Below are positions 1-58,398 of a stretch of 58,418 nucleotides of DNA, piece after piece. Below the pieces are notes generated by a model. It was not told the DNA's origin, made no database searches, and was given only the letters and a program-made list of their open reading frames with translations. The number at the start of each line of letters is the position of its first letter. Positions within the stretch are counted from its first letter, which is position 1. Both the position numbers and the translations under genes were made by a program. This DNA is from Escherichia phage KS_A3: the sequence record PP627278.1; one strand, given 5' to 3'.

Positions 1-558
1 ATGAACGGGGCAAGTCAAGAGCAATATGATCGTGACTGGACGAATTACATCCAGTATGCAAATAGCTTGTCCGCTGAAGAGATGGCAATACGTGACAAAG
101 TTGTTGCTGAGTACATGTTCGACTACAATTGGACTAACGCTTGCATGAGATGCGGGTTCAATGCTATGTTTGCACAGGAGCTTGGCCAACGCTTTGCCAC
201 GGACTGTTATGTTCGATGGAAGCTCAAGGAGATTGAAAGATCCCGTGTTCAACGTACTTCTGAGCAAGCTAACATTGAAGCAGACCTTGAGCGTCAGCAT
301 ATCATTGAAGCATTAAAACGTGAAGCTCATTATACAGGACCGGGATCTTCTCAAGCTGCTAGAGTCGCCGCATTGGGCAAGCTTGCACAAATTTATGATT
401 TGGATGCTCCCAAGAAGGCTAAGATTGATGTTACTAACAGAGGCGGCGTAATGATAGTCCCTGCTGTAGCAAATATTGACGAATGGGAAAAAACTGCATC
501 CGAGTCTCAACAACGACTAGTTAAAGAGACTGAAGATGGAGCTAAACCGACAACCTGA
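1..558 (+). CDS. putative terminase small subunit
   Basis: 185-aa ORF beginning at window position 1, immediately upstream of and overlapping the terminase large subunit gene by 23 nt; assigned by position only. Confidence 0.4.
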   Translation: MNGASQEQYDRDWTNYIQYANSLSAEEMAIRDKVVAEYMFDYNWTNACMRCGFNAMFAQELGQRFATDCYVRWKLKEIERSRVQRTSEQANIEADLERQHIIEALKREAHYTGPGSSQAARVAALGKLAQIYDLDAPKKAKIDVTNRGGVMIVPAVANIDEWEKTASESQQRLVKETEDGAKPTT

Positions 559-2095
559 TAACATGCCGCGAGTCGTCTGGAAACCACATCCAGGTTCACA
601 GACACTCGCTCTATCCTGCCCCGCTGATATTATCCTATACCACGGAACTCGCGGTCCTGGAAAAACGGACTGCCAGCTTATGCGTTTCCGTAAGAATGTT
701 GGTGTAGGGTACGGTAAATTTTGGAAGGGTATTATATTCGACCGTGAATATAAAAACCTTGATGACCTTGTAACTAAATCCCAGCGTTGGTTTCCTGAAT
801 TTAAAGACGGGGCTAAATTCCTTAGCTCTAAGTCTGATTATAAATGGGTTTGGCCTACAGGTGAAGAGCTACTGTTCCGCGTTGCTTGTAAAGAAAAGGA
901 TTACTGGTCTTATCACGGTCACGAATACCCATTTATCGGATGGAACGAATTAACAAAATATCCGGACGGGCGTTTGTTTGAAGCTATGATGTCCTGTAAC
1001 CGTTCATCTTTCTTACCAGAAGATAACCCAATTATCAATCCAGATGGTACGGTCACATATTTACCGGATATCCCTCTTGAAGTGTTTGCTACCAGTAACC
1101 CGTTTGGTGCGGGACATAACTGGGTTAAGAAACGCTTCATTGACGCTGCACCGATGGGTAAAATACTCAGGAAGACTACGCGAGTGTTTAACCCGAGGAC
1201 GCAGAAAGACGAAGATGTGGTTACGACGCAATGCCATATCTTTGGTTCGTACCGTGAAAACAAAAACCTAAGTCCAAAATATATTGCAGAACTTATGTCT
1301 ATCACAGACCCGAACAAGCGTGCTGCATGGTTGGGCGGGAGCTGGGATATTACATCCGGTGGTATGTTCGATGACCTGTGGCGTAGCACTGTTCACAAAG
1401 TACGACCATTCCCAATTCCAGCAAGTTGGAAGGTTACACGTTCTTTCGACTGGGGTTCTTCAAAACCTTTCTCTGTCGGTTGGTGGGCTATTAGTGATGG
1501 TTCGGATGTTGTGCGTGAAGACGGCACTACATTCTCCACGGTCCGCGGTGACCTGTTTAGGATTAACGAATGGTATGGGACCAACGGTAAAACAAACGAA
1601 GGTCTACATTTGCTGGACTCAGAAATTGCAAGCGGTATACTGGAGCGGGAATTGGCCTGGGGTATACACGATCGTGTAGTTCCTGGTCCTGCGGATAACT
1701 CCATTTGGGATCTGGAGAACAATAACTCCACCGCTGCAACAATGGCGAAGAAAATTCGTCTTAACGGGAAGTTATACAACGGTATACATTGGAAGCGCAG
1801 TGATAAGTCTGCTGGGTCACGTAAACGAGGCTGGCAGAAAATGCGTGAGTTCCTTAAAGCTGCACTGCGGGAAGATGCGAACGGTAAACCTTTGCCCGGT
1901 CCGCGCGAGAATCCAGCAATGTACATTTTTGATAACTGCAACTATTTCTTTGAGCTGGTTCCAAGTCTACCTCGCGATGAAGTAGATCAGGACGACGTTG
2001 ATACGGAATGTGAAGACCATATGGGTGATGAAGTTCGTTATATGGTTCTGGATCAAGCTGTTTATACAGGTGTTGGCAAAACTATCGGTATTTAA
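536..2095 (+). CDS. terL: terminase large subunit
   Basis: 519 aa; N-terminal Walker A-like ATPase motif GTRGPGKTD; size and position ahead of portal gene. Confidence 0.8.
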   Translation: MELNRQPDNMPRVVWKPHPGSQTLALSCPADIILYHGTRGPGKTDCQLMRFRKNVGVGYGKFWKGIIFDREYKNLDDLVTKSQRWFPEFKDGAKFLSSKSDYKWVWPTGEELLFRVACKEKDYWSYHGHEYPFIGWNELTKYPDGRLFEAMMSCNRSSFLPEDNPIINPDGTVTYLPDIPLEVFATSNPFGAGHNWVKKRFIDAAPMGKILRKTTRVFNPRTQKDEDVVTTQCHIFGSYRENKNLSPKYIAELMSITDPNKRAAWLGGSWDITSGGMFDDLWRSTVHKVRPFPIPASWKVTRSFDWGSSKPFSVGWWAISDGSDVVREDGTTFSTVRGDLFRINEWYGTNGKTNEGLHLLDSEIASGILERELAWGIHDRVVPGPADNSIWDLENNNSTAATMAKKIRLNGKLYNGIHWKRSDKSAGSRKRGWQKMREFLKAALREDANGKPLPGPRENPAMYIFDNCNYFFELVPSLPRDEVDQDDVDTECEDHMGDEVRYMVLDQAVYTGVGKTIGI

Positions 2096-2106
2096 CTGGA
2101 GGGTAT

Positions 2107-3603
2107 ATGGGTATTGATGCAACTCACCCGCTATATAACAAGTGGAAGGACGCATGGGTTAAGTGCAACGACTGCTATGAGGGTGAAGATAAAATTAAGG
2201 AAGAAGGTGTTAAATATCTACCACCTTTAGCTTCCATGATTATTGATGGGATGAATAATCCTAATGATTTGGGCTTTCAACGTTGGCTTGCCTATCGTCT
2301 GCGTGCTAACTTCCCTGACGATTATTCAAGTGCGGTTACAAACAATCTAGGTCTGCTGCACCAGAAGCCTCCTACAATCCAGCTCCCCCCTGAAATGGAA
2401 TACATGCGGGATCTGTGTACTGCGGACGGTGAAGACATTATTGCTCTGCTACGTCGCATCAACGAAATGCAGTTAAAAAATGGACGTTTGGGGCTGCTGC
2501 TGGACTTGCCTAAAGGTGAGGATGTAAATAACAGACCTTATATTAGTGTTTATGATGCTTTATCCATTATCAACTGGGATGATGGTAAAGATGAATTGGG
2601 CAATATCAACTTGAACATGGTTGTTCTGGATGAAAGCGGCCCTGTACGTGTCAATCAGTTTGACTGGAAAGAAGAGAAGCGTTATCGTGTACTACAATTA
2701 GGTCCAATGGACACAGATGAAGTTGCAGGTGGAGCTGTCTACTCCCAACATCTGTTTATTAACAATACCAATTATGATGAAGGGCAAATGATTGCTCCTT
2801 ATTATAAAGGTAATACGCTGGATGAAATTCCTTTCCAGTTTGTCAATACAACAGATATTACCCCAGCACCGGAAGCGCCGCCATTGTTGGGTCTTGCTAA
2901 CATTTGTCTAAGCATGTACCGAAGTGACGCGGATTACCGCCAAAGCTTGCATATGCAGGGTCAGGACACCTTAGTCGTTGTTGGTGGTACTGGGGAGAAT
3001 GGGGATAAAGCCCCTCAACGCATCGGTCCTGGCGCTGTCATTAACGTTGCTATTGGTGGTGACGCTAAATATGTAGGTGTTAGCGGTGACGGTTTGTCCG
3101 AGCAACGTCTCGCACTTGCAGCGGATAAGCAAGAAGCACAAATTAAAGCCGGGCAAATGGTAAACAATACCAAGAGTACGCAGGAATCGGGTGAAGCCAT
3201 GAAAACGCGTATTGCTGCGCGTACAGCTAGTCTGATTCGAATTGCGTATACTGGTGCGGCTGGTCTGGAAAACTTGCTGAAGGTTTGCGCTAAGTGGATG
3301 GGCGCTGATCCCGAGAAAGTTGTGGTTAAGCCTAATCTTGAATTCACCAAGAGCATGTTTAACGGTCAAGACTTTGTTCAAATTATCACTGCACGCAACC
3401 TTAAAGCTCCGATTAGCTTGCAGTCTATTCATGGCTGGCTTGTTGATCAGGGCTTAACCACACTAAGCTTTGAAGAAGAAATGGCAATTCTTGAAGAAGA
3501 GCTTAAGAAGTGGCCTCTGCCTGATGATGCTAAAGCTGATTTAAACGCAGAGCAGCAAGTAAGCAAAGATCCTAAGGAAGACAACGCTTCCGATAAAGAA
3601 TAG
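2107..3603 (+). CDS. portal protein
   Basis: 498 aa ORF directly after terL with SD (GGAGGG) before ATG; acidic C-terminus; assigned by synteny. Confidence 0.6.
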   Translation: MGIDATHPLYNKWKDAWVKCNDCYEGEDKIKEEGVKYLPPLASMIIDGMNNPNDLGFQRWLAYRLRANFPDDYSSAVTNNLGLLHQKPPTIQLPPEMEYMRDLCTADGEDIIALLRRINEMQLKNGRLGLLLDLPKGEDVNNRPYISVYDALSIINWDDGKDELGNINLNMVVLDESGPVRVNQFDWKEEKRYRVLQLGPMDTDEVAGGAVYSQHLFINNTNYDEGQMIAPYYKGNTLDEIPFQFVNTTDITPAPEAPPLLGLANICLSMYRSDADYRQSLHMQGQDTLVVVGGTGENGDKAPQRIGPGAVINVAIGGDAKYVGVSGDGLSEQRLALAADKQEAQIKAGQMVNNTKSTQESGEAMKTRIAARTASLIRIAYTGAAGLENLLKVCAKWMGADPEKVVVKPNLEFTKSMFNGQDFVQIITARNLKAPISLQSIHGWLVDQGLTTLSFEEEMAILEEELKKWPLPDDAKADLNAEQQVSKDPKEDNASDKE

Positions 3604-3698
3604 TTGCAACTTCCAAGTTGATTGGTTTATATTAACGAACACGGGGCTGGGACGGCTCAGCCCCAAAAACGTCACACGGGTGACAACGGAGATAAGAA

Positions 3699-4571
3699 AT
3701 GAAAAAGAGTTCTGTAGCTATTAGTGTTGGTATGGCTTTAATTAATCCACGCGCTCGCGGTGAAGGTGATGTGGAACTGGAATACGAATATGCATCTGCG
3801 GAAGAAATCCCGGCAGAGTTTGCAACTCTTTACGCAGAGCAGGGCGGTAAATACGTTCTTGCAAAAGTTAAAGGTGTAGCCCCTGCTGATAGCGTTCGTC
3901 GTCTGGAAAGTGCATTAGCAAAAGAACGTAACGACCATCGTCAGGTGAAGCAACAGATTAGCGCACTTGGGCGTCCGGTTGAAGAAGTCCTTGCGGACCT
4001 TGATCGTATCCCTCAACTGGAAGCTGCCGCTAACGGTAAAGGTACTCCGGAAGACATCGAAAAGATGGTTAAAGCTCGTCTTGCTCCGCTCGAGCGTCAA
4101 TTGCAAACTGTAGCAGCTGAACGCGATTCCGTTAAGCAGGAAATTGAAGGCTACCGCACTCGCGAAACTAAAGCGAAAATTAAAGACGCAGTTATTGCCG
4201 CTGCATCCGGTGCTAAGCTGCGTCCGTCTGCTATCGAAGATGCGGTGACTTATGCACAGTTGCAAATGACCGTCGACGAGAACGGCAATGTGGTTACGAA
4301 AGATGGGGCGGGTGTAACTCCATACCTAACCCCGGCGGATTGGCTTAACGAGATCCTCCCGAAACGTCCTCACTGGGTTGAGGGTTCTGCTGGTGGCGGT
4401 GCATCTGGTCCGGGTGCTGGCGGTCATCACGGTGAAGACCCATACAGTCACGACGGTTGGAACATCTCTAAGCAGATGAATCTCTGGAAAACTAATCAAT
4501 CTTTAGCTAAACGCTTAGCTGAAAAGAATGGCGTAGATCCGCTGAAGCCTGTACGTCCTGCTAAGAAATAA
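3699..4571 (+). CDS. putative scaffolding protein
   Basis: 290 aa, charged and predicted helical, located between portal and major capsid genes. Confidence 0.45.
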   Translation: MKKSSVAISVGMALINPRARGEGDVELEYEYASAEEIPAEFATLYAEQGGKYVLAKVKGVAPADSVRRLESALAKERNDHRQVKQQISALGRPVEEVLADLDRIPQLEAAANGKGTPEDIEKMVKARLAPLERQLQTVAAERDSVKQEIEGYRTRETKAKIKDAVIAAASGAKLRPSAIEDAVTYAQLQMTVDENGNVVTKDGAGVTPYLTPADWLNEILPKRPHWVEGSAGGGASGPGAGGHHGEDPYSHDGWNISKQMNLWKTNQSLAKRLAEKNGVDPLKPVRPAKK

Positions 4572-4572
4572 G

Positions 4573-4601
4573 TTGACATCCCGACGTCCCTGATGTTAAG
4601 T
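4573..4601 (+). promoter_or_regulatory. candidate sigma70-like promoter upstream of capsid gene
   Basis: TTGACA (4573-4578), 17-nt spacer, TTAAGT; overlaps a 10-bp perfect-stem hairpin (4586-4618). Confidence 0.3.
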
Positions 4602-4693
4602 TTCAACACATCAGGGACACGGGTTCCTAAACAGCCTTCCACGGGGAAAGGCTACCAACAGTAAACAAATCAATCCTTTTCCTGGAGACAAGT

Positions 4694-5755
4694 ATGTCTA
4701 AATCTAAAATTATTCTGCCATTTGGTCGTGGTGAAACTGACCTAACTCGTTTGACGGATGTCATTGTCCCTGAGATCTTCACTGGTTATGTGCAGACGCA
4801 GACCGCTGAACTTTCTGCCCTGATCCAATCCGGTGCGGTTGTGATGGACGAGCGTTTATCAGCTAACCTTGCTGGTGCAGGTCTGACTTTTAACGAGCCG
4901 TTCTATAACGACCTGAAAGATGAAGACGAAGATATCGCGGTTGATAAAGGTGATCCGTCCAAACCGTCTAACATCACTACCGGATCTGAAGTTCAGGTTC
5001 GTATGAGTCGTTCAAAATCCTGGGGTTCTGCGGATCTGGTATCAGCTTTGATTGGTAACGACCCAATGACCGCTATCGGTAACCGCGTATCTGCGTGGTG
5101 GGTTCGCCGTCTGCAAGCTGCATACATCGCAACCTGGAAAGGTGTATTTGCTAATGCGAAGAAATCTCATAAGGACGATTTGACTTTCGACATCTCTGGT
5201 CCTTCTTTTGTAAATAACCAGACCAACTTTACCGCGTCTAACTTCATCAACGCAACCGCAACGATGGGTGATGCTGCCCGCGGTCTGACTATGATTATGG
5301 TACACTCTACCGTTCGTAACCGTATGCGTCAGTTGAACATGATCGACTTCATTCCAGATGCTCGCGGTGAAACTCAGTTTGAGTATTATCAGGGTCTGCG
5401 TATTATTGAAGACGACTCCATGCCACACGATCCGTCTACTGGTGTGTTTGAAAGCTGGCTGTTCGGCCCGGGCGCAACTGCAATGGGTGCTGGATCACCG
5501 AAAGTTCCGACCGCTGTGGTGCGTGACGAAGCCGCTAACCAAGGCGCTGGTGAAGAAGTTCTTCACAACCGTGTTGAATGGATTCTGCATCCGGTTGGCC
5601 ATGCTTGGGCTGCTGCTCAAACTGCTAAAGGTGGTCCGTCTAACGCTGCTACCACTAACAACCTGGCCCATGAAGATTCCTGGCGTCGTGCGTTCCCTGA
5701 GCGCAAGCAGCTTAAAGTTGCACGCCTGATCACTCGTGAGTATCAGGGTTCCTAA
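4694..5755 (+). CDS. major capsid protein
   Basis: 353 aa ORF after scaffold gene, strong SD (GGAGA), followed by a terminator; assigned by synteny. Confidence 0.6.
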   Translation: MSKSKIILPFGRGETDLTRLTDVIVPEIFTGYVQTQTAELSALIQSGAVVMDERLSANLAGAGLTFNEPFYNDLKDEDEDIAVDKGDPSKPSNITTGSEVQVRMSRSKSWGSADLVSALIGNDPMTAIGNRVSAWWVRRLQAAYIATWKGVFANAKKSHKDDLTFDISGPSFVNNQTNFTASNFINATATMGDAARGLTMIMVHSTVRNRMRQLNMIDFIPDARGETQFEYYQGLRIIEDDSMPHDPSTGVFESWLFGPGATAMGAGSPKVPTAVVRDEAANQGAGEEVLHNRVEWILHPVGHAWAAAQTAKGGPSNAATTNNLAHEDSWRRAFPERKQLKVARLITREYQGS

Positions 5756-8717: not shown

Positions 8718-9641
8718 ATGGCTACAGGTTCACGTTATTCATGTTACTACGTCAAAGAAGATGTAAGCAACACTACGCCAGCGAGTGCGAAGTTTACTCC
8801 GTTCCGTGTGACCAGCTCCGGTCTGGACATTAATATTGCAACGCTGGAATCTGAAGAACTGCGCGATGACGCTGAAACTGCGGACTTCCGCCTCGGTGCT
8901 CGCAGTGTTGAAGGTACAGTAACGGGCGAAATGTCCTTCGGCACCTTCGATGATCTTATTGCTGCTGCACTTCGTGGGGAGTGGCAAGACAACGTCCTTA
9001 AAGGCGGTATTATCCGTCAGTCATTTACTTTCGTAGACTATAACGCAGATCTACCGTCAGGTAAATATACAATTTATCGCGGTTGCGAAGTTAATAGCAT
9101 GACTTTCTCATTGTCTGCGGAAAACATGACCACAGTGGAATTCGGTATTGTTGGTCGCTCAATGGAAATTGCGGAATCGCTCCCATCTGGTGCAACTATC
9201 AAAGAGCGTACGACTACTTCACCGATGGATGGTTTCTCCGGTCGCTTGCTGGAAAACGACGAAGAAATCAGCGTTATTACGGAAATCGGTCTTACCGTTG
9301 AAAACGATATTGCACCGCGCTTTGTTGTTGGTTCTAAGTTCTCCATTGAACCGTCCGCTGGCCGCCGTGCGGTAACTGGTACAGCTAACGTGTACTTCCT
9401 GGATAACAAGCTGCGTATGAAGTATCTGGATGAAGTGGAAACTTCAATCAAGTTTGATCTGATTGACCCAAGCAATCCGGAACAAAAATACACTGTGGAA
9501 ATCCCTCGCGTGAAATTCACTGAAGCTCCGCGTCCTATTGACGGTGAAGGGGATATCATGCTTAATATGGGCTACCGCGGATTGCTGGACCCAACAACCG
9601 CAAGTTCCATCAAAATTACCCGCGTTGTAGCGGGAGCCTAA
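8718..9641 (+). CDS. major tail protein
   Basis: 307 aa ORF with SD, immediately upstream of tail chaperone/frameshift/tape measure genes. Confidence 0.55.
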   Translation: MATGSRYSCYYVKEDVSNTTPASAKFTPFRVTSSGLDINIATLESEELRDDAETADFRLGARSVEGTVTGEMSFGTFDDLIAAALRGEWQDNVLKGGIIRQSFTFVDYNADLPSGKYTIYRGCEVNSMTFSLSAENMTTVEFGIVGRSMEIAESLPSGATIKERTTTSPMDGFSGRLLENDEEISVITEIGLTVENDIAPRFVVGSKFSIEPSAGRRAVTGTANVYFLDNKLRMKYLDEVETSIKFDLIDPSNPEQKYTVEIPRVKFTEAPRPIDGEGDIMLNMGYRGLLDPTTASSIKITRVVAGA

Positions 9642-53240: not shown

Positions 53241-53291
53241 TTATCAATCTATAATGGGCTCTACGGAGCCCTTAATTATCTGGAGATTGTT

Positions 53292-54416: not shown

Positions 54417-54809
54417 ATGCTATTAGTCGTCACCGGAGGTCGAGATTTTAAGCATGTGGAGTATATTTACGCTCAATTGGATAAGCTGCATATGCAAAGA
54501 AGGATAACCACACTTCGCCACGGTGACGCTGACGGTGTTGACCGCATTTGCGCACATTGGGCAGAGCGCAACGGTATTAAGACAGAAGCGTTCCCTGCCC
54601 CGTGGGACAATCTTTCCTTACCAAATACCAAGATACGGTATAACGCCAAGGGTGCTTATAATGCACAAGCTGGCGCATACCGTAACCAATTAATGTTGGA
54701 TACTGATCCTAAACCAGATCACGCTATTGTGTTTCCTGGCGGAGCTGGTACTATGGATATGTACAGACGGATTAAAGCATCCGGTATTCCTTACACTTTA
54801 GCGGAGTAA
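54417..54809 (+). CDS. SLOG/DUF2493-like Rossmann-fold protein
   Basis: 130 aa; VTGGRDF...HGDADGVDRICAHWA...FPGGAGT pattern typical of SLOG (Smf/DprA-LOG) family. Confidence 0.4.
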   Translation: MLLVVTGGRDFKHVEYIYAQLDKLHMQRRITTLRHGDADGVDRICAHWAERNGIKTEAFPAPWDNLSLPNTKIRYNAKGAYNAQAGAYRNQLMLDTDPKPDHAIVFPGGAGTMDMYRRIKASGIPYTLAE

Positions 54810-55284: not shown

Positions 55285-55491
55285 ATGGAAACTCCATTAG
55301 CTAAACAAATGATAGAGCGTGCGGATCGGGACGGTTTACCGGAAGACCATGCTATGCGTCGAACTGCCCAAGTATTTGACGAAATTAGCGTTAAATATGC
55401 GATGGGTAAGAGCACGCCTAAAGGTTTATTGGGCGCCTGGGCTCGCGCTCGGCGCTGCTGGTGCAACTACACCGGAGAACCACTTGTATGA
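55285..55491 (+). CDS. hypothetical protein
   Basis: 68 aa ORF. Confidence 0.4.
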   Translation: METPLAKQMIERADRDGLPEDHAMRRTAQVFDEISVKYAMGKSTPKGLLGAWARARRCWCNYTGEPLV

Positions 55492-55910
55492 TTAAACACG
55501 TTAAACAGCCAACGTTGAATACATGCGTTTCTGCGTGTTTGGCAATGATCCTTAATAAACCTGTCGAAAAGGTCATTAAGGAATTTCACAGTCGTTATTA
55601 TAACAACTGGGAAATCACTATCAGCGAATATTTGACTAAAAACGGCGTCCCGCATCATTGTTCAGAAGGTGGTGGGCGTGAAACTTTGCATATGGGAGGT
55701 TTGTTCCTATGCACGGTGCCAAGTCTTAATATTCCTGGCGCATTGCACCAGATTGTGATTGATATGACGGATCACAAGTTTATTGTGCATGATCCAATTA
55801 AAGGATGGGAAGGTAAAAAGTTCTATGTTGGTCCGGATCAAGATCCTGAAGAGCCTGGAGCTTTTATCATTCATACTTGGGTCAAAGACGTTGAAATCCT
55901 GCCTTATTAA
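55488..55910 (+). CDS. putative C39-like papain-fold cysteine peptidase
   Basis: N-terminal QPTLNTCVSACLAMIL resembles the Q...C..A.L.M catalytic-Cys motif of C39 peptidases; ATG 55488 overlaps upstream stop. Confidence 0.3.
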   Translation: MIKHVKQPTLNTCVSACLAMILNKPVEKVIKEFHSRYYNNWEITISEYLTKNGVPHHCSEGGGRETLHMGGLFLCTVPSLNIPGALHQIVIDMTDHKFIVHDPIKGWEGKKFYVGPDQDPEEPGAFIIHTWVKDVEILPY

Positions 55911-55972
55911 TTTTCTTGCTATCACATAACCCTTCATTGTATTGTGTACCCATCGAATAAGAGGGGTACACA

Positions 55973-56158
55973 ATGACCAAACTATACGCCGGATTGTTTT
56001 TATTTGCGACGTTGATGTTCGCTGGGCTTTATACCTATACAGTAGTCGAACAACCTTCCACGGTTATCCGAATCTTTGCAAGTACAGGGCTTTGCATCTG
56101 TCTTATTCTATTTGTTTTATGCATTGTTATTATTCAAGACCAAAGGAAAGTTAAATGA
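55973..56158 (+). CDS. small two-TM membrane protein
   Basis: 61 aa, two hydrophobic helices. Confidence 0.4.
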   Translation: MTKLYAGLFLFATLMFAGLYTYTVVEQPSTVIRIFASTGLCICLILFVLCIVIIQDQRKVK

Positions 56159-56619
56159 CCACAATTGCGTTTGATGGAAAAGTATTAGCTGCGGACCGTG
56201 GCGTTATGCGCGGGGAAGCTGTGACTGCTTATAAGAAAGTTCATAGCGTGAATGGACATCGTGGACGGTTTTTACTGGGCTTGTGCGGTTTGACAGCATT
56301 TACCGATCAGGTGTTGCGTTATTTTAATAGCGCGGAACCTGTTAAGTTCCCTGATATTAAACTTTACAGCAAAGATGATGATTACGGGCAAACTTGCGGT
56401 CTTGCTGTCACTCCGGAAGGTACTTGCCATTTTATTTATAATGATGGTACTTTGAGCGAGCCCATGCTGGATGGATGGGGATCTGAGGGTAGCGGTTGTG
56501 TGTTTGCTGCTGGGGCGTTAGCTGCTGGTGCAAGTGCGAGCGAAGCTATTGAGTTGGCAATTAAACACACCACATGCGCATTCCTGGGAGTCGATACAAT
56601 ATCATTTGAGGGTTTTTAA
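56155..56619 (+). CDS. HslV/proteasome-like Ntn-hydrolase peptidase
   Basis: 154 aa; N-terminal MTTIAFDGKVLAADRG (Thr nucleophile after Met) and C-terminal GSEGSGCVFAAGALAAG...AIELAI parallel the HslV TTIV...AGDGQ and GSGG.YA..AA.AL pattern. Confidence 0.45.
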   Translation: MTTIAFDGKVLAADRGVMRGEAVTAYKKVHSVNGHRGRFLLGLCGLTAFTDQVLRYFNSAEPVKFPDIKLYSKDDDYGQTCGLAVTPEGTCHFIYNDGTLSEPMLDGWGSEGSGCVFAAGALAAGASASEAIELAIKHTTCAFLGVDTISFEGF

Positions 56620-56880
56620 ATGACTACATTCAGTCACCTGATCCCACCTGCTTATCATAGTAAGGTAGTTGACCACGGGACGCATGTTGTAATTGGTGGC
56701 GAAATCTTTATCACAGATAACGAGGAAATCGCCATTGCAATTATTGACAGCACTCAGCATGACTTTATGGTTATCCTGCAACACGAACCAGATAACTTCA
56801 CTTTTTACTCCAGCTACGGGGTCGATAAAGGTGGAAAAAGCCTTGTTAGCTGGTACATTAGTGAGTGGTTTGACGGGTAA
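56620..56880 (+). CDS. hypothetical protein
   Basis: 86 aa ORF. Confidence 0.4.
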   Translation: MTTFSHLIPPAYHSKVVDHGTHVVIGGEIFITDNEEIAIAIIDSTQHDFMVILQHEPDNFTFYSSYGVDKGGKSLVSWYISEWFDG

Positions 56881-56962
56881 TCTCCTTAGATCAATTCTCC
56901 TTGCGCCGTATCAAGTTTCTCTGTTACCCTTGAGTGGTTCATGTCAAGCGGAGGAACTCGAT

Positions 56963-57400
56963 ATGGCACTTCAACCTCGTGGTATTCGTAATAACAATCC
57001 AGGCAATATTCGCTGGGGTGATAATTGGCAGGGCTTAGTTCCTGTTGATAAGCGAACCGATAAATCTTTTGCGCAATTCACGCAACCGATTTACGGCATT
57101 CGCGCACTAGCGAAAATCCTGACAAACTACACCAAACGTGAAGGCTTACCCAATGTGGGTAAGAAAAACATCGACACTGTACGTGAAATCATCGCTCGCT
57201 GGGCACCGCCTAACGAAAACGATACGGAAGCGTATATTCGCTCTGTTGCCAAAGCAATTGGTGTTCAACCTAACGATCCAATTAATGTCTTCGACAAGGC
57301 AATTATGTCAGGATTGGTGAAAGCAATCATTCGTCATGAAAATGGCATGATGCCCTATACCGATGACGTAATTAACCGCGCTATTGCAATGGTACTTTAA
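56963..57400 (+). CDS. putative endolysin (peptidoglycan hydrolase; family not resolved)
   Basis: ATG at 56963 with SD GGAGGA (track ORF over-extended from 56693); immediately upstream of holin and spanin genes. Confidence 0.45.
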   Translation: MALQPRGIRNNNPGNIRWGDNWQGLVPVDKRTDKSFAQFTQPIYGIRALAKILTNYTKREGLPNVGKKNIDTVREIIARWAPPNENDTEAYIRSVAKAIGVQPNDPINVFDKAIMSGLVKAIIRHENGMMPYTDDVINRAIAMVL

Positions 57401-57436
57401 CTGACGGGGCGTTAGCCCCTTTTATTTGGAGGGAAC

Positions 57437-57781
57437 ATGTTCAATTCACCCAACGAACATTGGGCAGTTCTAGCGGGGTTTGCGTTTATCTCCCTCATTG
57501 GGGGAGCTCTCGGTTATGTCATGCGTACAATAGACGCTGGTAAGAAAGTACGGGCAAGCATTGCATTTCTTGAAGGCTTATCCGCCGCTTTCTTTGGCGT
57601 TATAATGTATGCGATCTACAGGGAGTTTAACATCAGCCTTTGGTTCGCTTTTGGCCTTGCTGGCCTATTTGCTTGGGTAGGTTCACGTGCTACGCTAAAA
57701 GCCCTAACGTCGCTTATAGCTTCACGGACAGGGATCAAACTCGATTCAGGGGACTGCAAACATGAAAACGATTCTAAATAA
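57437..57781 (+). CDS. holin
   Basis: 114 aa, three predicted TM helices, charged C-terminus, SD GGAGGG. Confidence 0.55.
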   Translation: MFNSPNEHWAVLAGFAFISLIGGALGYVMRTIDAGKKVRASIAFLEGLSAAFFGVIMYAIYREFNISLWFAFGLAGLFAWVGSRATLKALTSLIASRTGIKLDSGDCKHENDSK

Positions 57782-58235
57782 CTTCTTCGGTTTTATAAAA
57801 ACTAAACCGCGTCTGTTTATCGAGTATTTGATGATCGGCGCGGTTGTGTTTTTATGCGGGGTGGCTGCATACTTGTGGTCACAGAACGAGCTCAGCAAAA
57901 CTAATTTAAATCATGCTGAGCAAAGACTAACCGTTGTAGAACGGGACAATGCAAAGCTGGGCGAAGCTGTTGTATTTCTTGCATCCCAACGGGAGAAGGA
58001 TACTGAATCCTATCGAAAATTGGCTTCAGCGATTGAAAGTGAGCAACATAACCACAGGTTGCTTCAGGACAAATTAAAAGCACTGGAGAAAAGCAATGCC
58101 GACGTCAAAGCTTATCTTAATGAGCGTGTTCCTGATGATTTGCGCAGGCTGCTCGACGGAGATACAACCTCCACCGCCGCAGATAGTGAAAATAAAACTT
58201 CCAGCCCATCTGTTGGTAGAATGTCGGGAAGTTGA
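57762..58235 (+). CDS. i-spanin (Rz-like)
   Basis: 157 aa; N-terminal TM helix then coiled-coil periplasmic domain. Confidence 0.55.
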   Translation: MKTILNNFFGFIKTKPRLFIEYLMIGAVVFLCGVAAYLWSQNELSKTNLNHAEQRLTVVERDNAKLGEAVVFLASQREKDTESYRKLASAIESEQHNHRLLQDKLKALEKSNADVKAYLNERVPDDLRRLLDGDTTSTAADSENKTSSPSVGRMSGS

Positions 58236-58398
58236 TAAATATCCTTTGGTTTATACGAGGGATATTATCCAACGTTTGCAGGATACAGAAACAGCTCTGA
58301 CTGAATGTAAACTGAGGGTTAAGGAAATCATACGCTATGAAGCTGAAAATGTTTCGCTTGATTTTGTAGGATCAAGCAATTATATTCAGCCTAAATAG
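58096..58398 (+). CDS. o-spanin (Rz1-like lipoprotein), overlapped with i-spanin gene
   Basis: 100 aa in alternate frame starting inside the i-spanin gene; signal peptide with Cys (LMICAGCST), Pro-rich mature N-terminus, SD GGAG. Confidence 0.5.
   Translation: MPTSKLILMSVFLMICAGCSTEIQPPPPQIVKIKLPAHLLVECREVDKYPLVYTRDIIQRLQDTETALTECKLRVKEIIRYEAENVSLDFVGSSNYIQPK

What the first reader, a model, noticed from the sequence alone, without database searches (positions are those of the whole stretch)
55488..56619. Two putative peptidases (C39-like and HslV-like) just upstream of the lysis cassette
One protein has an N-terminal QPTLNTCVSACLAMIL segment resembling the catalytic-Cys motif of C39 peptidases. 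The other begins MTTIAFDGKVLAADRG and ends GSEGSGCVFAAGALAAG...AIELAI, paralleling the HslV/proteasome N-terminal Thr nucleophile fold. A two-TM membrane protein lies between them. Phage-encoded HslV-like proteases are rare; targets could be host defence or regulatory proteins or phage maturation substrates.
Basis: partly seen in the sequence, partly recalled or inferred. Interest (0 to 1): 0.55.

Follow-up and report, generated by a model that had tools for sequence, protein, structure and literature searches.

The report
Two small phage peptidases before lysis genes
This E. coli phage carries two small genes that are very probably proteases, a minimal proteasome/HslV relative already catalogued as "PPH" and a stand-alone C39-like cysteine peptidase; both calls hold up, but nobody knows what either enzyme cuts.

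Summary
The window is a Seuratvirus (Queuovirinae) genome. This stretch is 100% identical to Escherichia phage KS_S4.

- **ORF 56155-56619 (154 aa).** It is a minimal proteasome-beta/HslV homologue. The AlphaFold2 (AF2) model has pLDDT 95.6. The top PDB fold matches are all HslV or 20S beta subunits. A family profile hits HslV at E 2.5e-9. M1, T2, D14, G45 and the glycines of the G-S-G motif are invariant; K28 is nearly so. It has no propeptide and lacks helix H2. [quoted passage not shown] 2021). GenBank already labels this exact protein "peptidase HslV family".
- **Context.** The C39-like gene lies upstream of a PPH gene in four phage genera and in 15 of 80 viral-contig loci. Most PPH genes have no C39-like neighbour. 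Instead they sit just upstream of terminase and portal genes.

Substrates and biological role are unknown. The finding is solid but only modestly novel.

The parts
55488..55910 (+). gpA: stand-alone C39-like (clan CA, papain-fold) cysteine peptidase, 140 aa. Predicted catalytic set: Q7 (55506-55508, oxyanion), C13 (55524-55526, nucleophile), H87 (55746-55748), D102 (55791-55793).
55973..56158 (+). 61-aa predicted two-TM protein between the two peptidase genes. Its stop overlaps the PPH start (ATGA). It is lineage-specific and not part of the conserved pair.
   Evidence: ORF. phrog_22841, unknown function. Hydropathy. No homologue next to the pair in JenP1, Vid5 or PSTCR7.
56155..56619 (+). gpB: PPH-type minimal proteasome-beta/HslV homologue (Ntn hydrolase), 154 aa. 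Predicted active site: T2 (56158-56160, N-terminal nucleophile after Met removal), D14 (56194-56196), K28 (56236-56238), G45 (56287-56289, oxyanion), G112-S113-G114 (56488-56496).
   Evidence: phrog_1040 'peptidase HslV family' E 5.4e-32. Pfam Proteasome 15.4 bits, below the 22.4-bit threshold. Conservation in 22 homologues. Profile versus PDB HslV E 2.5e-9. AF2 pLDDT 95.6 with a single helix (47-58) where HslV has H1+H2. Foldseek top hits are HslV and 20S beta, probability 1.0, TM 0.66. PPH description. Codons checked.
56620..56880 (+). 86-aa ORF of unknown function, starting at the base after the PPH stop codon. It lies between the PPH gene and the endolysin gene.
   Evidence: ORF. phrog_23528, unknown function. 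No match in Pfam, NCBIfam or PADLOC. Not conserved in other genera.
54417..54809 (+). Context: DUF2493/YAcAr SLOG-domain protein (130 aa). It is syntenic with the peptidase pair in three genera.
   Evidence: Pfam YAcAr E 4.9e-18. Homologues lie between the C39-like and PPH genes in Vid5 and directly upstream of the C39-like gene in PSTCR7.
56963..58398 (+). Context: lysis cassette. Endolysin 56963-57400, LydA-type holin 57437-57781, Rz-like i-spanin 57762-58235, and an overlapping lipobox ORF 58096-58398 (candidate o-spanin). Terminase genes follow across the genome end, at 1-2095.

Best explanation
The interval encodes two separate, probably active, cytoplasmic peptidases. Both belong to the accessory gene set at the head of the rightward gene block (small genes, then lysis, then terminase and structural genes).

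**gpB (56155-56619)** is a PPH, the smallest known proteasome-family subunit.
- Host methionine aminopeptidase is expected to remove Met1, as it does for E. coli HslV, whose gene also starts MTTI (my recollection of the HslV sequence, not retrieved here). This is an inference from established MetAP specificity.
- That exposes Thr2 as the N-terminal nucleophile. Thr2 would act with D14, K28, the G45 oxyanion hole and the G-S-G loop.
- By analogy with HslV and BPH it probably forms rings that degrade unfolded peptides. Oligomerisation was not tested here.

**gpA (55488-55910)** is a stand-alone C39-like papain-fold endopeptidase.
- Cys13 sits at the N-terminus of a helix and is activated by His87 and Asp102. 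Gln7 forms the oxyanion hole.
- By analogy with C39 enzymes it most likely makes a site-specific cut after a small-residue (Gly-Gly-type) motif in one or a few proteins. This is also inference.

**What is shown and what is inferred**
- Shown: fold, family placement, conservation of the catalytic residues, and genomic context.
- Inferred: activity, oligomeric state, timing of expression, and that the enzymes are accessory. The accessory reading rests on the patchy occurrence of both genes among related phages.
- Unknown: substrates.

The two genes show a recurrent order (C39-like upstream, PPH downstream). Each family also occurs widely without the other, so I treat them as independent enzymes that may co-operate in this lineage.
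For: **Identity of the window.** It is a Seuratvirus; this stretch is 100% identical to phage KS_S4.

**gpB**
- PHROG HslV family, E 5.4e-32.
- Invariant M1, T2, D14, G45, G112, G114; K28 at least 90% conserved.
- Profile hits more than 60 HslV, 20S-beta or BPH chains; best E 2.5e-9.
- AF2 pLDDT 95.6 with no H2 helix.
- All top Foldseek PDB hits are HslV or proteasome beta subunits.
- It matches the published PPH description: about 140 aa, no propeptide, lacks H2, found in tailed phages.

**gpA**
- Q7/H87/D102 invariant and C13 in 133 of 134 sequences, across a family of at least 1063 clusters at 50% identity.
- Q-x5-C spacing and the C..AC.AM motif as in C39 domains.
- 10 of 134 relatives hit Pfam Peptidase_C39.
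- AF2 pLDDT 96.3.

**Independent automated annotations agree.** Public names include 'Proteasome subunit alpha type-2', a name derived from the ComA peptidase-domain PDB entry, and 'cysteine protease'.

**Context**
- The order C39-like then PPH is found in Seuratvirus, Nonagvirus, Craquatrovirus and Vidquintavirus.
- It is also found in 15 of 80 IMG/VR C39-like loci, or 7 of 33 groups at 80% identity.
Against: - No enzymology exists for any PPH or for this C39-like family.
- Both proteins score below their Pfam gathering thresholds.
- Sequence profiles of gpA do not reach significance against the PDB. Its placement therefore rests on predicted structure plus transitive Pfam hits.
- Foldseek E-values for gpA are weak (0.011).
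- Some proteasome homologues are not proteases; connectase is a ligase.
- Some structural neighbours of gpA are peptidoglycan or pseudomurein peptidases or toxins rather than leader peptidases.
- Ring formation and Met removal are assumed, not tested.
Confidence: 0.72

Rival explanations
1. The two genes form one functional two-protease module. The C39-like enzyme makes a specific cut, or removes a Gly-Gly-linked modifier. PPH then degrades or processes the product, possibly as a counter-defence or host-takeover device.
For: - Same-strand order, C39-like upstream of PPH, in four genera at only 28-38% identity.
- The two ORFs overlap in PSTCR7 and in 4 IMG/VR loci.
- PPH is the most recurrent neighbour of the C39-like gene: 15 of 80 loci, 7 of 33 groups. 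By comparison, PPH was detected in only 59 of 50,697 phage records.
- Josephin, UfSP and other bacterial deubiquitinase-type enzymes are among gpA's fold neighbours.
Against: - Only 2 of 80 PPH loci, both Seuratvirus, have a C39-like gene within 7 kb.
- The C39-like gene occurs alone in Kuttervirus (between the topoisomerase II subunit genes), Samunavirus, Vibrio podophages, metagenomic phages and a Vibrio Queuovirinae member.
- The co-occurring phages are mostly about 57-61-kb siphoviruses, so the synteny may simply be inherited.
- No PADLOC hit and no literature support.
Confidence: 0.3
2. PPH is a morphogenesis-linked protease acting on scaffold, capsid or packaging proteins. It would be functionally tied to the terminase/head module rather than to lysis or host takeover.
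For: - In diverse PPH loci the next one or two genes downstream are mostly terminase large or small subunit or portal genes.
- In this phage PPH precedes lysis genes, then terS, terL, portal, scaffold and major capsid protein (MCP).
- No head-maturation protease is annotated or detected in the head module.
Against: - Canonical prohead proteases sit between portal and MCP, not upstream of terS.
- At least 2 PPH loci also carry a canonical head maturation protease.
- The Vid5 virion proteomics listed 11 proteins, and the paper's main text never mentions a protease, a peptidase, ORF93 or ORF95. This is weak evidence, and the list of 11 proteins itself was not read.
- No PPH gene was found in the two genome-end stretches examined of the Vibrio Queuovirinae phage ALK: about 5.7 kb containing its C39-like gene and the last 6.8 kb, which ends in terminase.
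- Genes at the start of late operons are often unrelated to assembly.
Confidence: 0.15
3. gpB works as a phage-encoded replacement core for host HslU, giving an HslV-like ATP-dependent protease with phage-altered specificity.
For: - HslV chains are the best sequence and fold matches.
- The N-terminus MTTI is identical to that of HslV-type subunits.
- The host is E. coli, which has HslU (established knowledge).
Against: - gpB lacks helix H2 and about 20 residues of the apical face that HslV presents to HslU. The role of that face is my knowledge of HslVU structures.
- PPH is classed as a family distinct from HslV.
Confidence: 0.1
4. gpA is a cell-wall (peptidoglycan) peptidase that assists lysis, not a protein-processing enzyme.
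For: - It lies 1 kb upstream of the lysis cassette here and in three other genera.
Against: - The top three fold matches are bona fide C39 leader peptidases.
- The invariant Gln six residues before the Cys is the papain/C39 oxyanion signature.
- A complete endolysin, holin and spanin set is already present.
- Homologues in Kuttervirus, Vibrio phage VP2 and metagenomic phages sit among replication and DNA-modification genes, far from lysis genes.
Confidence: 0.07

Closest known systems
[quoted passage not shown]
   Same: - About 140-150 aa.
- Starts Met-Thr with no propeptide.
- Thr/Asp/Lys/Gly active-site set.
- Lacks helix H2 and the C-terminal S12/H5 elements.
- Encoded by tailed phages and prophages of Proteobacteria.
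   Different: Nothing found that sets gpB apart. Clustering with the paper's reference sequence could not be run. The family has only been described by bioinformatics and has no known function.
HslV (ClpQ), the proteolytic core of bacterial HslVU
   Same: - Best sequence and fold matches.
- Same N-terminal MTTI.
- Thr1 nucleophile and G-S-G loop.
   Different: - About 20 residues shorter and lacks H2.
- Below the Pfam Proteasome threshold.
- No adjacent hslU gene.
- About 17-20% identity.
C39 peptidase domains of peptidase-containing ABC transporters (PCAT1, ComA, LahT150)
   Same: - Papain-like fold.
- Gln-x5-Cys ... His ... Asp-Pro order and spacing.
- C(G)xAC/SLAM helix motif.
   Different: - gpA is a free-standing 140-aa protein with no transporter.
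- It is phage-encoded.
- Below the PF03412 threshold, with 14-19% identity.
- No double-glycine leader substrate identified.
Stand-alone C39-like proteins and papain-fold deconjugases (B. anthracis 3erv; Josephin/'clippase' deubiquitinases such as PaJOS; UfSP)
   Different: Lower structural scores than the transporter C39 domains (except 3erv). No sequence-level link was found. No ubiquitin-like substrate is known for this phage.

Membership tests
PPH (proteasome-like family, group I; Fuchs et al. 2021) | Proteasome-beta/HslV-type Ntn-hydrolase fold | tested here: met
   AF2 pLDDT 95.6. Foldseek top 50 PDB hits are all HslV, 20S beta or BPH, probability 1.0, TM up to 0.66. Profile E 2.5e-9 to HslV.
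PPH (proteasome-like family, group I; Fuchs et al. 2021) | Thr directly after the initiator Met (no propeptide), plus equivalents of Asp17, Lys33 and Gly47 | tested here: met
   M1, T2, D14 and G45 invariant; K28 at least 90% conserved in 22 homologues down to 30% identity.
PPH (proteasome-like family, group I; Fuchs et al. 2021) | About 140 residues; second helix (H2) and C-terminal S12/H5 absent | tested here: met
   154 aa. The model has one helix (47-58) followed by a loop to strand 80-85. HslV shows a 13-residue insertion relative to the family profile at that point. Definition.
PPH (proteasome-like family, group I; Fuchs et al. 2021) | Encoded by tailed phages or prophages | tested here: met
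   Seuratvirus genome. Homologues found in 59 phage records and 144 IMG/VR contigs.
PPH (proteasome-like family, group I; Fuchs et al. 2021) | Clusters with the PPH reference set (e.g. WP_042125023.1) in sequence space | not tested
   The reference sequence is not retrievable with these tools, and the held supplement has no matching entries. The indirect evidence is the phrog_1040 hit.
HslV proper (HslVU protease core) | Passes the Pfam Proteasome (PF00227) threshold; about 175 aa with an H1+H2 helix pair | tested here: not met
   15.4 bits against a 22.4-bit cut-off. 154 aa with no H2.
HslV proper (HslVU protease core) | Partner AAA+ unfoldase HslU encoded alongside | tested here: not met
   No HslU or AAA+ unfoldase among the annotated genes of the KS_S4 record, positions 1-50000 and 52108-58526. 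Use of host HslU is not testable here.
Peptidase C39 (MEROPS C39, Pfam PF03412, clan CA) | Papain-like fold with the nucleophile Cys at the N-terminus of a helix | tested here: met
Peptidase C39 (MEROPS C39, Pfam PF03412, clan CA) | Catalytic order Gln (oxyanion) - Cys - His - Asp, conserved | tested here: met
   Q7, H87 and D102 in 134 of 134 sequences; C13 in 133 of 134. Q-to-C spacing of 6.
Peptidase C39 (MEROPS C39, Pfam PF03412, clan CA) | Scores above the PF03412 gathering threshold | tested here: not met
   13.7 bits against 22, matching only residues 3-24. 10 of 134 relatives reach E <= 0.01, best 2.4e-6.
Peptidase C39 (MEROPS C39, Pfam PF03412, clan CA) | N-terminal domain of a bacteriocin/peptide ABC exporter | tested here: not met
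   Free-standing 140-aa ORF with no transporter gene nearby. Most relatives are 135-160 aa.
Peptidase C39 (MEROPS C39, Pfam PF03412, clan CA) | Cleaves after a double-glycine leader | not testable with these tools
   No substrate identified. No conserved small neighbouring ORF across 33 locus groups.

The most novel reading that the evidence does not exclude
The C39-like peptidase and PPH are a co-operating two-protease module switched on with the late genes. One version: gpA acts as a Gly-Gly-specific deconjugase or processing enzyme, for example stripping host ubiquitin-like (Bil- or CBASS-type) modifications from virion proteins. PPH then acts as a minimal unfoldase-independent, or HslU-hijacking, degradation chamber. 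That would give a phage its own miniature 'deubiquitinase + proteasome' system.
Probability: 0.08. Interest if true: 0.8.

Novelty: new member of a known kind. Interest (0 to 1): 0.35.

Why it matters
PPH is the smallest known proteasome-family protein and the only clearly viral one, yet no member has been studied experimentally. This E. coli phage belongs to a group with lab-tractable members (CAjan, Seurat, several BASEL-collection phages). It therefore offers a practical system for asking what a viral proteasome homologue does.

The C39-like protein represents a large, unnamed family of small phage cysteine peptidases: at least 1063 clusters at 50% identity, spread over siphoviruses, Ackermannviridae and podoviruses. 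Its substrates could be host or phage proteins.

Two context results narrow the hypotheses. First, the order C39-like then PPH recurs in a subset of phages. Second, PPH genes generally sit immediately upstream of terminase and portal genes.

None of this changes current understanding until substrates are found.

Tried and rejected
- **Single-sequence searches against the PDB.** Nothing useful for either protein.
- **gpA profiles against the PDB.** Neither the 18-sequence nor the 134-sequence profile reached significance. The best relevant hits were LahT150 and PfhB2 at E about 0.9. hhalign against the LahT150 fragment aligned only the Cys-helix motif, probability 74%.
- **NCBIfam and PADLOC.** No meaningful hits, so neither protein is a known defence-system component.
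- **Supplement of the PPH paper.** It does not list Seuratvirus proteins.
- **Literature searches.** No functional study of phage C39-like proteases, phage HslV/PPH, or phage counter-measures to Bil-type ubiquitin-like defence involving these families. The Avs2 paper that mentions Seuratvirus concerns the terminase only.
- **Promoter and terminator scan.** Counts are not above shuffled expectation. Two terminator-like hairpins (53256-53271 and 57406-57419) bracket the block, but this is weak evidence of a transcription unit.
- **Conserved partners.** I tested whether the 61-aa TM protein, the 86-aa ORF or the 68-aa upstream ORF travel with the pair. They do not. The 68-aa ORF is missing in CSP1C.
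- **PPH as a substitute for a prohead protease.** Not supported as a general rule, because 2 PPH loci also have a canonical head maturation protease.
- **SLOG/DUF2493 linkage.** Real in three genera but not general: 3 of 80 PPH loci and 4 of 80 C39-like loci.
- **Active-site geometry.** Model coordinates are not exposed, so it could not be measured.
Full report
**What the window is.** The 2.5-kb stretch around the finding is 100% identical to Escherichia phage KS_S4 (PP627282.1; Seuratvirus, Queuovirinae). It is 92-99% identical to about 30 other Seuratvirus genomes, including Seurat, CAjan, Greed and several BASEL phages. The window as a whole is a very close relative of KS_S4 rather than an identical copy (first difference at base 8741, 108 bp shorter). 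All genes from about 52 kb to the right end are on the + strand. They run into the lysis cassette and then, across the genome end, into terS, terL, portal, scaffold and major capsid protein at 1-5755.

**Checking the observation.**
- gpA, 55488-55910, 140 aa.
- A 61-aa protein, 55973-56158, with two hydrophobic segments.
- gpB, 56155-56619, 154 aa.

Each has a Shine-Dalgarno-like motif. The 61-aa ORF overlaps gpB by ATGA, and an 86-aa ORF starts at the base after the gpB stop codon. Downstream lie the endolysin (phrog_873), a LydA-type holin (Pfam E 2.7e-10), an Rz-like spanin and an overlapping lipobox ORF. The quoted sequence motifs are present verbatim.

**gpB is a PPH-type proteasome homologue.**
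- Single-sequence Pfam support is sub-threshold (Proteasome, 15.4 bits against 22.4). PHROGs gives 'peptidase HslV family' at E 5.4e-32.
- A database search found 22 homologues of 143-206 aa, down to about 30% identity.
- In their alignment M1, T2, A5, A12, D14, G45, G112 and G114 are invariant, and K28 is at least 90% conserved. These correspond to Thr1, Asp17, Lys33, Gly47 and the G-S-G loop of HslV and the proteasome.
- The profile of this alignment hits 167 PDB sequences, led by HslV (E 2.5e-9), 20S beta subunits and BPH.
- The AlphaFold2 model is confident (pLDDT 95.6, pTM 0.90). All of its top 50 Foldseek PDB matches are HslV, proteasome beta or BPH chains, with probability 1.0.
- The model has a single helix (47-58) where HslV has the H1/H2 pair. 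HslV shows a 13-residue insertion relative to the family profile at that point.

[quoted passage not shown] The exact protein is already named 'peptidase HslV family [Escherichia phage Seurat]', 'putative protease', 'ATP-dependent protease' or 'Proteasome subunit alpha type-2' in public records. I found no experimental work on any PPH.

**gpA is a stand-alone C39-like cysteine peptidase.**
- Alone it gives only a 13.7-bit match to Pfam Peptidase_C39, over residues 3-24. PHROGs places it in phrog_4049, function unknown.
- The exhaustive profile search shows the family is large: 1063 cluster representatives at E <= 1e-3, of which 666 are at E <= 1e-10. Nearly all are 135-160 aa.
- In an alignment of 134 diverse members (about 30-45% identity to gpA), Q7, H87, D102 and P103 are invariant. 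C13 is present in 133 of 134 and C17 in 125 of 134.
- The order Gln-x5-Cys ... His ... Asp-Pro and the helix motif C-x-x-A-C-L-A-M are those of C39 domains.
- Ten of the 134 members individually hit Pfam Peptidase_C39, best E 2.4e-6.
- The AlphaFold2 model built on this alignment has pLDDT 96.3 and puts C13 at the N-terminus of helix 13-22, the papain-fold hallmark.
- Foldseek ranks the PCAT1 C39 domain first (probability 1.0, TM 0.61, but E only 0.011).
- Sequence profiles alone do not reach significance against the PDB. The assignment therefore rests on predicted structure, the conserved catalytic residues and transitive Pfam hits.
- Automated pipelines reached the same call. A MAG record carries a name taken from the ComA peptidase-domain PDB entry. 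Phage CSP1C carries 'cysteine protease', although in that record the product names are displaced by one CDS.

**Family membership.**
- gpB meets every PPH feature I could test. It fails two HslV-proper features: the Pfam threshold and helix H2, and an adjacent hslU.
- gpA meets the structural and catalytic definition of C39. It is not a transporter domain and is below the Pfam threshold. 'C39-like, clan CA, stand-alone phage subfamily' is the defensible label.

**Context and linkage.** The order C39-like then PPH, on the same strand and upstream of the lysis and terminase genes, recurs in several genera.
- Nonagvirus JenP1: gp79 and gp82.
- Craquatrovirus PSTCR7: gp58 and gp59, which overlap.
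- Vidquintavirus Vid5: ORF93 and ORF95.

Protein identities across these are only 28-38%, and local HMM searches confirm the assignments.

Among 80 C39-like loci fetched from IMG/VR, 15 carry a PPH ORF downstream on the same strand. That is 7 of 33 groups at 80% identity. The gaps are overlapping in 4 loci, 0.25-0.7 kb in 5, and 3-5 kb in 6. PPH is the most recurrent neighbour of the C39-like gene.

The relationship is not reciprocal.
- Only the 2 Seuratvirus loci among 80 PPH loci have a C39-like gene within 7 kb.
- The C39-like gene occurs alone in several settings: Kuttervirus (between the two topoisomerase II subunit genes), Samunavirus, Vibrio podophage VP2, metagenomic phages next to DNA-modification genes, and a Vibrio Queuovirinae member.

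These retrievals are pattern-seeded and the ORF calling is crude, so the fractions are indicative only. Much of the synteny could be inherited among related siphoviruses of about 57-61 kb.

**Where PPH genes usually sit.**
- In distant PPH loci the gene lies directly upstream of terS and terL, or between terL and the portal gene.
- Of the nearest 380-620-aa ORFs in 55 loci, most Pfam hits are terminase large subunit (12 Terminase_3, 9 Terminase_6N), portal or coat families. DnaB accounts for 5.
- Of the two genes immediately downstream in about 68 distinct loci, the commonest PHROGs are terminase large subunit (16, 10, 6 and 4 members in four families), portal, terminase small subunit, neck and major head. 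No lysis family is in the top 25.

The family's general association is therefore with the start of the packaging and head module. In Seuratvirus the lysis cassette happens to lie in between. This raises a morphogenesis-linked role as a rival explanation. Against it: at least two PPH loci also encode a canonical head maturation protease, the position differs from that of prohead proteases, and the Vid5 virion-proteomics paper never mentions a protease or peptidase in its main text (the protein list itself was not read).

**Most likely mechanism.**
- Shown: two intact, conserved active sites on confidently predicted protease folds, encoded by compact, ribosome-binding-site-preceded genes in the rightward gene block.
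- Inferred for gpB: it loses Met1 to host methionine aminopeptidase, which accepts Thr at position 2 (established specificity; E. coli HslV likewise starts MTTI, from memory). It then uses Thr2 as an N-terminal nucleophile, probably in HslV-like rings.
- Inferred for gpA: it is a site-specific Cys endopeptidase, by analogy with C39 enzymes likely preferring small residues before the cut.
- Unknown: substrates, timing, oligomeric state, any dependence on host HslU, and whether the two enzymes co-operate.

I put about 0.7 on 'two active, independent accessory peptidases'. I put about 0.3 on a real functional coupling in this lineage. Head maturation, HslU hijacking and a muralytic role for gpA each get lower values.

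**Verdict.** Novelty is limited. The HslV-like protein belongs to a published family and is already annotated as such. The C39-like protein is an unstudied but automatically recognisable member of a known clan. The new elements here are three: the size and strict catalytic conservation of the C39-like phage family, the recurrent order C39-like then PPH, and the positional link of PPH to terminase genes. Interest 0.35.

Noticed in passing
window 54417-54809 (+); L011 5465-5833; L009 2397-2912: A DUF2493/YAcAr SLOG-domain gene travels with the peptidase pair in three genera, in a different order in each. In Seuratvirus it lies two genes upstream of the C39-like gene. In Vid5 it lies between the two peptidase genes. 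In PSTCR7 it lies directly upstream of the C39-like gene and carries an extra N-terminal Cys-rich segment. It is not generally linked to either family: 3 of 80 PPH loci and 4 of 80 C39-like loci.
   Followed up: partly
L177 (PQ202980.1, Escherichia phage CSP1C) 1834-4747: Product names in this public record appear shifted by one CDS. 'cysteine protease' sits on the 61-aa membrane ORF. 'ATP-dependent protease subunit HslV' sits on the 86-aa ORF. 'endolysin' sits on the holin, 'holin' on the spanin, and so on. The intended labels fit the gene immediately upstream in each case.
   Followed up: partly
L012 (Salmonella phage allotria, Kuttervirus) 4980-5429: In Ackermannviridae the C39-like homologue (43% identity) is wedged between the large and medium subunit genes of DNA topoisomerase II. 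This is an early/middle replication context, quite unlike the pre-lysis position in Seuratvirus.
   Followed up: no
window 56620-57400 (+): There are competing gene models for the endolysin. The KS_S4 record annotates a 213-aa CDS that overlaps the 86-aa ORF. Other Seuratvirus records annotate a 145-aa endolysin starting at the ATG at 56963, plus the separate 86-aa ORF. A 235-aa TTG-initiated ORF (56693-57400) also exists.
   Followed up: no
window 55285-55491 (+): The 68-aa ORF, whose stop overlaps the gpA start (ATGA), is variable. It is absent in CSP1C. It probably accounts for the missing part of the 92%-coverage, two-piece matches to CAjan, Seurat and others.
   Followed up: partly
window 8741 and whole window: The window is not identical to PP627282.1 outside the region studied. 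The first mismatch is at base 8741, and the window is 108 bp shorter than the record (58418 against 58526). The position of the length difference was not located.
   Followed up: partly
window 2107-5755 (+): The head module reads portal, scaffolding protein (phrog_206), then major head protein. No recognisable head-maturation protease lies between portal and capsid genes, which suggests a protease-independent (P22/T7-like) assembly route or an unrecognised protease.
   Followed up: partly
window 53256-53271 and 57406-57419 (+): Two GC-rich hairpins followed by T-rich tracts bracket the block from 53292 to the end of the endolysin gene. The first coincides with a terminator annotated in phage SA80RD. 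Counts in the region are not above shuffled expectation.
   Followed up: no
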